A stretch of DNA of 64,000 bases from Escherichia coli (lineage in GTDB: Bacteria; Pseudomonadota; Gammaproteobacteria; Enterobacterales; Enterobacteriaceae): the NCBI RefSeq assembly GCF_965641715.1, contig NZ_OZ282453.1. The stretch is one strand, 5' to 3'. Shown here in pieces: positions 48,001-51,000 of the stretch; within the stretch, counting starts at the first letter, position 1, and each line of letters begins with the position of its first letter. Position numbers: made by a program.

Positions 48001-51000
48001 GAACTGATAGCCGAAAGCCTGTGGGAGTTTATTGATGAAGACCGCAGCGTGCAGACGCGTCTGGGCCGTGAAGACAGCGAATATCTCGCCCGCTCGGTGC
48101 CTTTCTACGCCGCCAATCAACCGCTGGCCGATATCAGCGAGATGCGCGTGGTGCAGGGAATGGACGCCGGGCTTTATCAAAAACTGAAACCGCTGGTCTG
48201 TGCGCTGCCGATGACCCGCCAGCAAATCAACATCAATACTTTAGACGTCACGCAAAGTGTGATTCTTGAGGCGCTGTTTGACCCGTGGTTAAGCCCTGTT
48301 CAGGCGCGGGCGTTATTACAACAACGTCCGGCGAAGGGCTGGGAAGATGTCGATCAGTTTCTTGCACAGCCGCTACTTGCTGACGTCGATGAGCGTACTA
48401 AAAAACAGCTAAAAACCGTCCTGAGCGTGGACAGCAATTACTTCTGGCTGCGTTCAGATATCACCGTGAATGAGATTGAACTGACGATGAACTCGTTAAT
48501 TGTCCGCATGGGCCCACAACACTTTTCTGTTCTCTGGCATCAGACAGGAGAAAGTGAGTGAGTTCCATCCTTGAGATTTTTTTCCCGCTTTGCGCCTCCG
48601 ACACCATCCGCTGGCAGCGCCGTACACCCGACGTGGAACACGGTATCTGGCCTGACGTTGCTGACGAACGTCTCCAGCAATGGCTGCAAACTGATGCGAT
48701 TCGACTCTACATTCCCGGCGAATGGATCAGCGTCTGGCAGGTTGAACTGCCTGATGTCCCACGCAAGCAGATACCGACTATTCTGCCCGCCTTACTGGAA
48801 GAAGAGCTGAACCAGGATATCGATGAACTGCATTTCGCCCCGTTGAAAATCGACCAGCAACTGGCAACCGTGGCAGTGATTCACCAACAGCATATGCGCA
48901 ACATTGCGCAGTGGTTGCAGGCAAACGGCATCACCCGCGCCACCGTCGCGCCAGACTGGATGTCCATACCTTGTGGCTATATGGCTGGCGATGCGCAACG
49001 GGTTATCTGCCGCATCGATGAATGCCGGGGATGGAGCGCCGGGCGGGCGCTGGCTCCGGTCATGTTCCGCGCCCAGCTAAATGAGCAGGATTTACCGCTT
49101 TCGCTAACCGTAGTCGGCATTGCACCGGAAGAGCTATCAGCATGGGCTGGCGCAGATGCTGAACGCCTGACCGTTACGGCTCTGCCCGCCATTACCACTT
49201 ATGGCGAACCGGAAGGGAACCTGCTAACAGGGTCGTGGCAGCCTCGCGTCAGCTACCGAAAACAGTGGGCGCGCTGGCGGGTGATGATTCTGCCGATATT
49301 GCTGATTCTGGTTGCGCTGGCAGTGGAACGGGGCGTGACGTTATGGAGCGTCAGCGAACAGGTGGCGCAAAGCCGCGACCAGGCGGAGAAACAGTTCTTA
49401 ACGTTGTTCCCGGAGCAGAAGCGGATTGTGAATTTACGCTCTCAGGTGACGATGGCGCTGAAAAAATATCGCCCACAGGCCGACGATACCCGGCTGCTCG
49501 CCGAGTTGTCAGCGATAGCCAGCACCCTGAAATCAGCGTCACTTTCCGACATCGAGATGCGTGGTTTCACCTTTGATCAAAAACGCCAGACGCTTCACCT
49601 CCAGTTGCGGGCAGCAAACTTTGCCAGTTTCGACAAACTGCGTAGTGCACTGGCAACCGATTATGTTGTGCAACAGGACGCGTTACAGAAAGAGGGTGAT
49701 GCGGTTTCCGGCGGCGTAACGTTGCGGAGGAAATAACATGTTACGCGATAAATTTATTCACTATTTTCAGCAATGGCGTGAACGCCAGTTAAGCCGTGGC
49801 GAACACTGGCTGGCACAACACCTGGCGGGGCGTTCTCCGCGTGAAAAGGGCATGTTACTGGCAGCGGTGGTGTTCCTGTTTAGCGTCGGATATTACGTCC
49901 TCATCTGGCAGCCGTTGAGCGAACGGATAGAACAACAGGAGACGATGTTGCAGCAACTGGTGGCGATGAACACCCGACTGAGGAGCGCCGCGCCGGATAT
50001 TATTGCAGCGCGAAAATCCGCCACGACAGCACCTGCGCAGGTATCGCGGGTCATCAGTGACAGTGCTTCCGCGCACTCGGTGGTCATCAAGCGGATAGCC
50101 GAGCGTGGGGAGAATATTCAGGTCTGGATAGAACCTGTGGTGTTTAATGACCTTCTGAAATGGTTAAACGCACTGGATGAAAAATATGCGCTGCGGGTAA
50201 CACAAATTGATGTCAGTGCTGCTGAGAAGACTGGGATGGTGAATGTGCAGCGGCTGGAGTTTGGACGAGGGTAAAGTTTCAGGAGATTAATATCAATAAA
50301 ATTACTCTCGTTAACGTGGCGAGAGTAATTCCCCCAGACTTTATAAGCTAATTTTTTTCGTGAAGGTTATTGTCAGATCCAAAAGCAAAAACCCGCCTTG
50401 TGGGCGGGTTCTTAAGAATTAGTGGTGCCCGGACTCGGAATCGAACCAAGGACACGGGGATTTTCAATCCCCTGCTCTACCGACTGAGCTATCCGGGCAA
50501 CGGGGCGCATTAAACCTGATTCGCCTCGTCTCGTCAATCAAATTTCTTCAATTTACTGCAGACTGCACAATCTATCATCACTTTGCCGCTATTGCACGCA
50601 TTGTCAGGCAAACCAGGCGGTCCAGGCTGCGGAAAGCGGCATTGCCAGAAGGAGTGCTGGAAGCATGTTGACCACCGGGAACATTTTAATGCCACAGATG
50701 CGTAATCCGGTTGCCAGCAGCAATAAACCGCCTACGGCGCTGAAGTCTGCCATCATCGACGGTGTGGTCAGCGGTAATATCAGCGCGGCAGCCCACGCCA
50801 GCGTTAACTGGATGATCAGTAATGGGATACTAATTACCGACACCGCAATACCCAGCGAGCAGGCGAAGATCATCGCCGTAAAGAAATCAAGAAATGACTT
50901 GGCGATTAAAATACTCGGATCGCCGGTCATCCCTTCGTTCATCGCCCCGAAGATCCCGGTGCCGCTGGCGCAAAACAGGACAATAATCGCGACATAATTC

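What the first reader, a model, noticed from the sequence alone, without database searches (positions are those of the whole stretch)
50381..50498. pheV tRNA-Phe with an unoccupied integration site
pheV is a classic insertion hotspot for pathogenicity islands in E. coli. Here the gene and its terminator are followed within about 150 bp by gspM, and the other side is yqgA-speC, with no integrase, direct-repeat duplicate of the tRNA 3' end or foreign DNA in the window.
Basis: partly seen in the sequence, partly recalled or inferred. Interest (0 to 1): 0.3.

Follow-up and report, generated by a model that had tools for sequence, protein, structure and literature searches.

The report
Empty pheV tRNA island-insertion site
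This is the ordinary E. coli pheV phenylalanine-tRNA gene with its own terminator and no genomic island inserted at its 3' end, the same state as in laboratory K-12 and about a quarter of complete E. coli genomes, so it is correct but unremarkable.

Summary
A 76-nt tRNA-Phe(GAA) lies at 50423..50498 on the minus strand. It is followed by a strong terminator hairpin at 50386..50414. After a 148-bp spacer comes the stop codon of the convergent yghD/gspM gene. yqgA and speC lie on the other side.

The window has no second copy of the tRNA 3' end, even allowing 5 edits. It has no integrase or integrase fragment in any frame. It has no insertion larger than 24 bp relative to an annotated E. coli genome that has no mobile-element genes in this stretch. 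The junction aligns base for base with K-12.

Among 5426 complete E. coli genomes, 1464 (27%) share this contiguous state. The others break at the tRNA 3' end or within about 40 nt downstream of it. They carry islands with a P4-type integrase and, in many, a 22-23-nt duplicate of the tRNA end.

One nuance: the roughly 41 kb on the 3' side (pitB to yghD, including sslE and T2SS-beta) was found only in E. coli among the species examined. Citrobacter sp. R56 has gss 3 kb from pheV. The ancestral terminator is still next to the tRNA, so that block did not enter through the att site.

Verdict: already known, low interest.

The parts
50423..50498 (-). pheV, tRNA-Phe(GAA), 76 nt with encoded CCA
   Evidence: ARAGORN. 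Rfam RF00005, 68.3 bits. Identical to K-12 pheV. Conserved nupG-speC-yqgA-tRNA-Phe synteny in 16 enterobacterial loci.
50423..50445 (-). attB core: the 3'-terminal 23 nt of the tRNA (TTCGATTCCGAGTCCGGGCACCA), single copy here
   Evidence: In occupied E. coli genomes the yghD-side flank retains window sequence up to 50440-50445. USMARC-49610 carries a 22-nt copy with a 1-nt deletion at the distal island end. In the window the only match at up to 5 edits is the tRNA itself.
50379..50422 (-). native pheV intrinsic terminator (hairpin 50386..50414 plus U-tract) and short trailer
   Evidence: Terminator scan. Fold of -19.5 kcal/mol, z = -4.4. The same sequence is adjacent to pheV in Citrobacter Awk4 (38/40), Citrobacter NCU1 (37/40) and Atlantibacter RC6 (35/40), with compensatory stem changes in other Citrobacter.
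50509..50537 (-). promoter-like site TTGACG-17 nt-TTTAAT followed by a GC-rich discriminator (GCGCCCC), ending 10 nt upstream of the mature tRNA 5' end
   Evidence: Pattern search gives 1 match against 0.02 expected. The sequence was read directly. Function is inferred, not tested. The generic promoter scan missed it because it requires an A at -10 position 2.
50275..50378 (.). yghD-pheV spacer specific to E. coli, containing an 11-bp inverted repeat (50300..50310 and 50320..50330)
   Evidence: Read from the sequence. Collinear and indel-free in K-12, A16, Res13 and the distal end of the USMARC-49610 island. Not alignable to other genera beyond about 50379.
49738..50274 (+). yghD (gspM-beta), last gene of the T2SS-beta operon, convergent with pheV
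   Evidence: Pfam T2SSM, E = 2.2e-45. Annotated as YghD/GspM in matching genomes.
50604..51311 (-). yqgA (DUF554 membrane protein), upstream of pheV on the same strand
   Evidence: Pfam DUF554, E = 6e-67. Annotation.
51710..53845 (+). speC, ornithine decarboxylase
   Evidence: Pfam OKR_DC_1, N-terminal and C-terminal domains. Annotation.

Best explanation
This is the chromosomal pheV gene of an E. coli strain in its unoccupied (attB) state. The tRNA is probably transcribed from its own promoter-like site at 50509..50537. Transcription ends at the native hairpin terminator directly after the CCA. The 3'-terminal ~23 nt of the gene are the target that P4-type tyrosine integrases of many genomic islands recombine with. 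No such recombination product is present here. The tRNA is followed by its ancestral terminator and then by the same spacer and yghD gene as in K-12. There is one copy of the att core and no integrase. Shown here: the gene, the terminator structure, the absence of att duplicates and integrase remnants, collinearity with empty-site genomes, and what occupied sites look like. Inferred: promoter and terminator function, and that the site is still a competent attB.
For: tRNA and terminator. Single att copy. At 5 edits, shuffled sequence already gives about 0.7 hits per strand, so the search went down to the noise level. No integrase: tblastn, best E = 4.4; HMM, best E = 1.3, with positive controls at 1e-21 to 1e-36. 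The window is collinear over its whole length with an annotated genome that has no mobile-element genes there. The junction matches K-12, A16 and Res13 base for base. 1464 of 5426 complete E. coli genomes are contiguous across the junction, while the rest break at window 50423, 50413 or 50381. Occupied examples: ST131 has a 421-aa integrase about 200 bp after the tRNA. USMARC-49610 has an island of more than 50 kb between yghD and pheV with a 22-nt tRNA-end copy at the distal end. The terminator is also next to pheV in Citrobacter and Atlantibacter, so it is ancestral. Published reviews list pheV as a major island integration site (PMC7545054) and note that T2SS-beta lies adjacent to pheV (PMC3707838).
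Against: Nothing contradicts it. Limits: only 50 kb on the 3' side and 13.5 kb on the 5' side are visible, and the source genome is absent from the collections (best 98.8%), so the wider genome (pheU, excised or circular forms) could not be checked. An island that excised precisely would leave the same sequence. The 27% figure reflects a database rich in laboratory K-12 derivatives. Insertions under about 2 kb would still have been counted as contiguous.
Confidence: 0.92

Rival explanations
1. The site was occupied in an ancestor and the island excised precisely by integrase/excisionase action. That restores an attB indistinguishable from a never-used one.
For: pheV is occupied in about 73% of complete genomes, so ancestors may well have carried an island. 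The flanks are mosaic: 100% identical to strain A16 over window 49300..50498, but only 97.9% over 35 kb. That suggests recombination at the locus.
Against: There is no footprint of any kind. The spacer and terminator match K-12 and other empty genomes without indels, and the terminator is the ancestral one. This rival differs from the main reading only in history, not in the present state.
Confidence: 0.2
2. The site is not really empty: the adjacent sslE/T2SS-beta block, or the whole 41-kb pitB-yghD interval, is an old pheV-targeted island whose integrase and att repeats have decayed.
For: gspC-yghD has GC 0.559, against 0.511 on the yqgA side. No gsp or sslE homologue follows pheV in any of the 15 non-E. 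coli enterobacterial loci examined. In Citrobacter sp. R56, gss-yghU-hyb starts 3 kb after pheV, against 41.5 kb in the window. Other Escherichia lineages reach glcA or glcB 6-9 kb after pheV without T2SS-beta. The literature calls the locus hypervariable (PMC3707838).
Against: Integration into the tRNA 3' end would move the native terminator to the far end of the island. Here the ancestral terminator is still directly next to the tRNA. No att-like copy exists at up to 5 edits anywhere in the 50 kb. No integrase remnant exists. Loss in the other genera is an equally possible history for parts of the interval.
Confidence: 0.08
3. Assembly artefact: an island at pheV was collapsed or dropped, which created a false empty junction.
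For: None found.
Against: The identical junction occurs in 1464 independent complete genomes, including K-12. The sequence across 50270..50510 is unambiguous and matches strain A16 at 100%.
Confidence: 0.01

Closest known systems
pheV locus of E. coli K-12 (speC-yqgA-pheV-yghD), empty attB
   Same: Identical tRNA gene. Same terminator, same 148-bp spacer without indels, and the same flanking genes and orientations.
   Different: K-12 lacks about 8.0 kb of the neighbouring T2SS-beta operon (window 40776..48771, from the gspC 3' end to the gspL 5' part). The window has the operon intact. Nucleotide identity is about 97%.
Occupied pheV sites (for example the ST131 pheV island; PAI-CFT073-pheV, PAI V536 and LEE/SHI-type islands listed in PMC7545054)
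   Same: Same tRNA gene and same yqgA-speC flank. The att core defined by those islands (the 3'-terminal 22-23 nt) is present and intact in the window.
   Different: Those loci have a tyrosine integrase about 200 bp after the CCA, 18-123 kb of accessory genes and, in many, a partial tRNA copy next to yghD (PMC7545054). The window has none of these.
Empty pheV sites in Citrobacter and Atlantibacter
   Same: nupG-speC-yqgA-pheV synteny, and the same terminator directly after the tRNA.
   Different: The DNA after the terminator is unrelated. Citrobacter sp. R56 reaches gss-yghU-hyb after 3 kb, while the window has 41.5 kb in between, including the glc operon, sslE and T2SS-beta.

Membership tests
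pheV (tRNA-Phe gene at the yqgA locus) | Cloverleaf tRNA with anticodon GAA | tested here: met
   ARAGORN. Rfam tRNA model, 68.3 bits against a gathering score of 29.
pheV (tRNA-Phe gene at the yqgA locus) | Position downstream of yqgA and next to speC (which distinguishes pheV from pheU) | tested here: met
   Pfam on the flanking ORFs. Annotation of collinear genomes. Synteny conserved in 16 enterobacterial loci.
pheV (tRNA-Phe gene at the yqgA locus) | Sequence identity to the reference K-12 gene | tested here: met
   All 76 nt are identical in alignment A1.
tRNA-associated genomic island (occupied att site) | Tyrosine (P4-type) integrase gene or remnant adjacent to the tRNA 3' end | tested here: not met
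   tblastn best E = 4.4. Integrase HMM on the six-frame translation, best E = 1.3, with positive controls at 1e-21 to 1e-36. No integrase in the transferred annotation.
tRNA-associated genomic island (occupied att site) | Direct repeat of the tRNA 3' end marking the distal island boundary | tested here: not met
   Only the tRNA itself matches at up to 5 substitutions or up to 5 edits, on both strands, across 64 kb.
tRNA-associated genomic island (occupied att site) | Block of strain-specific DNA between the tRNA and the conserved flank | tested here: not met
   The tRNA, terminator, spacer and yghD are collinear with K-12 and three other empty genomes. No window-specific insertion larger than 24 bp.
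Intrinsic (Rho-independent) terminator | GC-rich hairpin immediately followed by a U-run downstream of the gene | tested here: met
   12-pair stem with 6 G-C pairs, a 5-nt loop and a UUUUUGCUUUUGG tail. Fold of -19.5 kcal/mol, z = -4.4. Conserved with compensatory changes across genera.
Intrinsic (Rho-independent) terminator | Termination activity in vivo or in vitro | not testable with these tools
   Needs transcript 3'-end mapping.
Functional attB | Supports integrase-mediated recombination | not testable with these tools
   The core is identical to that of genomes which carry islands, but competence needs an integration assay.

The most novel reading that the evidence does not exclude
The 'empty' att site sits at the edge of a 41-kb E. 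coli-specific interval (pitB to yghD, including the glc operon, sslE and T2SS-beta). Its boundary falls immediately after the ancestral pheV terminator, at about window 50379. Some E. coli genomes (ES8, PEC408) also switch to other DNA at this point. This could mean that there is a second junction just past the terminator, independent of the integrase att site, through which much of the locus's variability arose, including the acquisition of T2SS-beta/sslE.
Probability: 0.3. Interest if true: 0.25.

Novelty: already known. Interest (0 to 1): 0.07.

Why it matters
It matters little in itself. An empty pheV is the K-12 reference state, and it is what tRNA-site screening methods for islands use as the negative result. 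It is useful as annotation in three ways. It shows that this strain lacks the pheV-borne islands (LEE, SHI-1/she, PAI-pheV with hly/pap/kps, and others). It shows that the strain keeps an intact SslE/T2SS-beta system next to the site. It also shows that the attB core is available for future acquisitions. The cross-genus comparison adds that the native terminator is an ancestral part of the tRNA module, and that the variable DNA begins right after it.

Tried and rejected
1. A fuzzy-regex search with indels timed out. I replaced it with a Sellers edit-distance scan.

2. I considered strain A16 as the source genome because it is 100% identical over 1.2 kb. I rejected it because identity is only 97.9% over 35 kb.

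3. The generic sigma-70 scan found no promoter in 50200..50700. Direct reading and a targeted pattern search found TTGACG-17-TTTAAT.

4. I tested the idea that T2SS-beta is a fossil pheV-integrated island. Compositional and comparative evidence suggests the block is lineage-specific. Entry through the att site is disfavoured, because the ancestral terminator is still next to the tRNA and no decayed att copy or integrase exists.

5. The genome-contig scan did not return the main E. coli, E. fergusonii or S. enterica subsp. enterica representatives. The cross-genus picture therefore rests on 16 loci.

6. A second literature search for occupancy statistics added nothing beyond PMC7545054.

Full report
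**Observation.** ARAGORN finds a single tRNA in the 64-kb window: tRNA-Phe (GAA) at 50423..50498 on the minus strand. Rfam's tRNA model agrees, matching 50426..50498 at 68.3 bits. Because the gene is on the minus strand, its CCA end, where tRNA-targeting islands integrate, is at 50423 and faces lower coordinates. A hairpin follows directly at 50414..50386, with 12 pairs, 6 of them G-C, and a U-run. As RNA it folds at -19.5 kcal/mol, z = -4.4, and none of 200 shuffles folds as well.

The next gene on that side is 49738..50274 (+), Pfam T2SSM/GspM, E = 2e-45. It is convergent with the tRNA, and its stop codon is 148 bp from the CCA. On the other side lie yqgA (50604..51311, -, DUF554) and speC (51710..53845, +). 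Upstream of the tRNA there is a promoter-like TTGACG-17-TTTAAT at 50509..50537 (-), with a GC-rich discriminator. Its function is inferred, not tested.

**Is the site occupied?** I tested four things.

1. *att duplicate.* The 3'-terminal 12 to 30 nt of the tRNA occur only once in the window, at up to 5 substitutions. A real distal copy in another genome turned out to carry a 1-nt deletion, so I repeated the search with an edit-distance scan. Only the tRNA itself matches at up to 5 edits on either strand. Shuffled sequence already gives about 0.7 hits per strand at that threshold.

2. *Integrase.* tblastn with the 421-aa integrase that follows pheV in an ST131 genome gives only noise, best E = 4.4. 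A profile HMM built from four pheV-adjacent integrases (ST131, E. coli SCPM-O-B-8794, S. enterica diarizonae and arizonae) was run with filters off against every stop-to-stop segment of at least 30 aa in six frames. Its best score is 3.9 bits, E = 1.3. The same HMM detects decayed fragments in E. albertii, Escherichia sp. MOD1-EC7003 and Citrobacter NCU1 at 1e-21 to 1e-36.

3. *Collinearity.* The whole window aligns end to end with annotated NZ_CP062811.1, with no window-specific insertion larger than 24 bp. The gene order is hybO-hybG, yghU, gss, pitB, yghT/S, a 10-kb lipid/LPS-like cluster, yghO, glcCDEFGBA, sslE, pppA, gspS2, gspC-L, yghD, tRNA-Phe, yqgA, yqgH, speC, nupG and onward to hemW. 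No integrase or transposase is annotated.

4. *Base-level junction.* From the yghD stop to the tRNA 5' end, the window aligns without indels to K-12 C600, A16 and Res13.

**What occupied sites look like.** Of 5426 complete E. coli genomes, 5425 match a 3-kb query centred on the junction, but only 1464 (27%) are contiguous across it. In the others the yqgA-side match stops at window 50423 (the CCA), 50413 or 50381. ST131 has a tyrosine integrase about 200 bp beyond the tRNA. USMARC-49610 has more than 50 kb of island DNA between yghD and pheV, including CbtA/YeeU, Ag43, IS66, sugar PTS genes and an aryl-polyene-like cluster.

On the yghD side, many occupied genomes keep window sequence up to 50440..50445. 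That is the original terminator and spacer plus a 22-23-nt partial copy of the tRNA 3' end. Others lose everything beyond the yghD stop. This defines the att core as 50423..50445, and the window holds it once. Over 24.5 kb, 869 genomes (16%) share both the empty site and an intact T2SS-beta operon. K-12 has the empty site but lacks window 40776..48771. The 27% figure is inflated by laboratory strains. Insertions under about 2 kb would also have been counted as contiguous.

**Is there 'no foreign DNA'?** The gspC-yghD block has GC 0.559, against 0.511 on the yqgA side. I scanned one genome per species for YqgA relatives and mapped window genes onto the 16 enterobacterial loci. nupG-speC-yqgA-pheV is conserved in cryptic Escherichia clades, E. 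albertii, Salmonella, Citrobacter and Atlantibacter. None of those loci has gsp, sslE or pppA within the 2-10 kb of sequence held after pheV.

In Citrobacter sp. R56, gss-yghU-hybGFEDC begins 3 kb after pheV. In the window, gss ends at about 8888, which is 41.5 kb from pheV. Two Escherichia lineages reach glcA or glcB 6-9 kb after pheV, past an integrase or an integrase fragment. E. whittamii has T6SS remnants and a KpsF-like gene there. So the 3' side of pheV is a long-standing variable region, as the literature notes (PMC3707838). In a deep sense the window's flank is lineage-specific.

**Did that block enter through the att site?** Integration at the tRNA 3' end moves the native terminator to the distal island end, as seen in USMARC-49610. 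In the window the terminator next to the tRNA is the ancestral one. The 40 nt after the CCA match Citrobacter Awk4 at 38/40, Citrobacter NCU1 at 37/40 and Atlantibacter RC6 at 35/40. Other Citrobacter show compensatory stem changes. Loci that carry an integrase have unrelated sequence at that position. Similarity to other genera ends about 44 nt after the CCA, near window 50379. The junction in E. coli ES8, which carries a different recombinase-bearing element, falls at the same place, window 50381. I conclude that the att site is unoccupied and that the E. coli-specific DNA begins just beyond the terminator. How that DNA arrived remains open.

**Comparison with what is known.** This is the K-12 reference configuration of pheV. 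pheV is a textbook integration hotspot. The review PMC7545054 lists pheV among the most frequently targeted tDNAs and tabulates pheV islands of 18-123 kb in UPEC, NMEC, APEC and AIEC strains, as well as LEE, SHI-type, LAA and SE islands. The adjacency of T2SS-beta to pheV and the K-12 internal deletion are described in PMC3707838. Nothing here departs from that picture.

**Limits.** The source genome is not among the 5426 complete genomes. The best match is 98.8% over 24.5 kb. Local identity to strain A16 reaches 100% over 1.2 kb but is 97.9% over 35 kb. pheU and the rest of the chromosome therefore could not be inspected. Precise excision of a former island cannot be told apart from a never-occupied site.

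**Verdict.** The feature is already known and ordinary. Interest is about 0.07.

Noticed in passing
window 33621..50274: A complete sslE-pppA-gspS2-gspCDEFGHIJKL-yghD (T2SS-beta) cluster is present. K-12 C600 lacks window 40776..48771 and has a frameshifted sslE. GC of gspC-yghD is 0.559, against 0.511 for the yqgA side.
   Followed up: partly
window ~12339..22151: A 10-kb cluster lies between yghS and yghO. In the closest genome it is annotated as an LPS-biosynthesis-like protein, a YtfJ-family protein, LptF/LptG-like permeases, serine palmitoyltransferase (spt), an acyl carrier protein, an epimerase and a fatty acyl-AMP ligase. This looks like a sphingolipid-like or unusual lipid pathway in E. 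coli. A low-GC intergenic stretch (0.405) follows at 22-23 kb.
   Followed up: no
window ~50379..50381: Similarity to Citrobacter and Atlantibacter ends here, right after the pheV terminator. Some E. coli genomes (ES8, PEC408) also switch here to a different element with tyrosine recombinases about 2.5 kb away. This may be a second recurrent junction, distinct from the att core inside the tRNA.
   Followed up: partly
window 50604..51311 (yqgA): In cryptic-clade Escherichia and E. albertii loci, YqgA is only 89-90% identical to the window protein. In the same loci the neighbouring SpeC is 94-98% identical and NupG 97.5-99%. Divergence is therefore elevated in the gene next to the hotspot.
   Followed up: no
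window 49300..50498 compared with 29300..64000: Identity is mosaic. Strain A16 (otter, Mexico) is 100% identical over the 1.2 kb spanning gspL-yghD-pheV but only 97.9% over 35 kb. No genome in the collection exceeds 98.8% over 24.5 kb. This suggests local recombination, and a source lineage that is not among the complete RefSeq genomes.
   Followed up: partly
window 31154..31375 (-): Rfam C0719 sRNA (299 bits) in the glcB-glcA intergenic region.
   Followed up: no
window 5851..5927 (-) and 62419..62489 (+): Two naRNA4 (REP-derived nucleoid-associated RNA) matches. The second lies in a self-similar repeat region at 62349..62547, between yggM and hemW.
   Followed up: no
window 38185..38485: The sslE-pppA intergenic region contains two overlapping direct copies offset by about 133 bp and about 89% identical. 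They appeared as off-diagonal BLAST hits.
   Followed up: no
window 50300..50330: A perfect 11-bp inverted repeat (AATTACTCTCG, 9-nt gap, CGAGAGTAATT) lies just after the yghD stop. It is conserved in all the E. coli junctions aligned. It could be the gsp operon's 3' hairpin or a protein-binding site.
   Followed up: no
L010 11089..18083 (E. whittamii): Downstream of pheV this species carries T6SS remnants (VasL, a ClpV fragment, VipA), followed by a SIS+CBS (KpsF-like) gene. This is a different occupant of the same variable position.
   Followed up: partly
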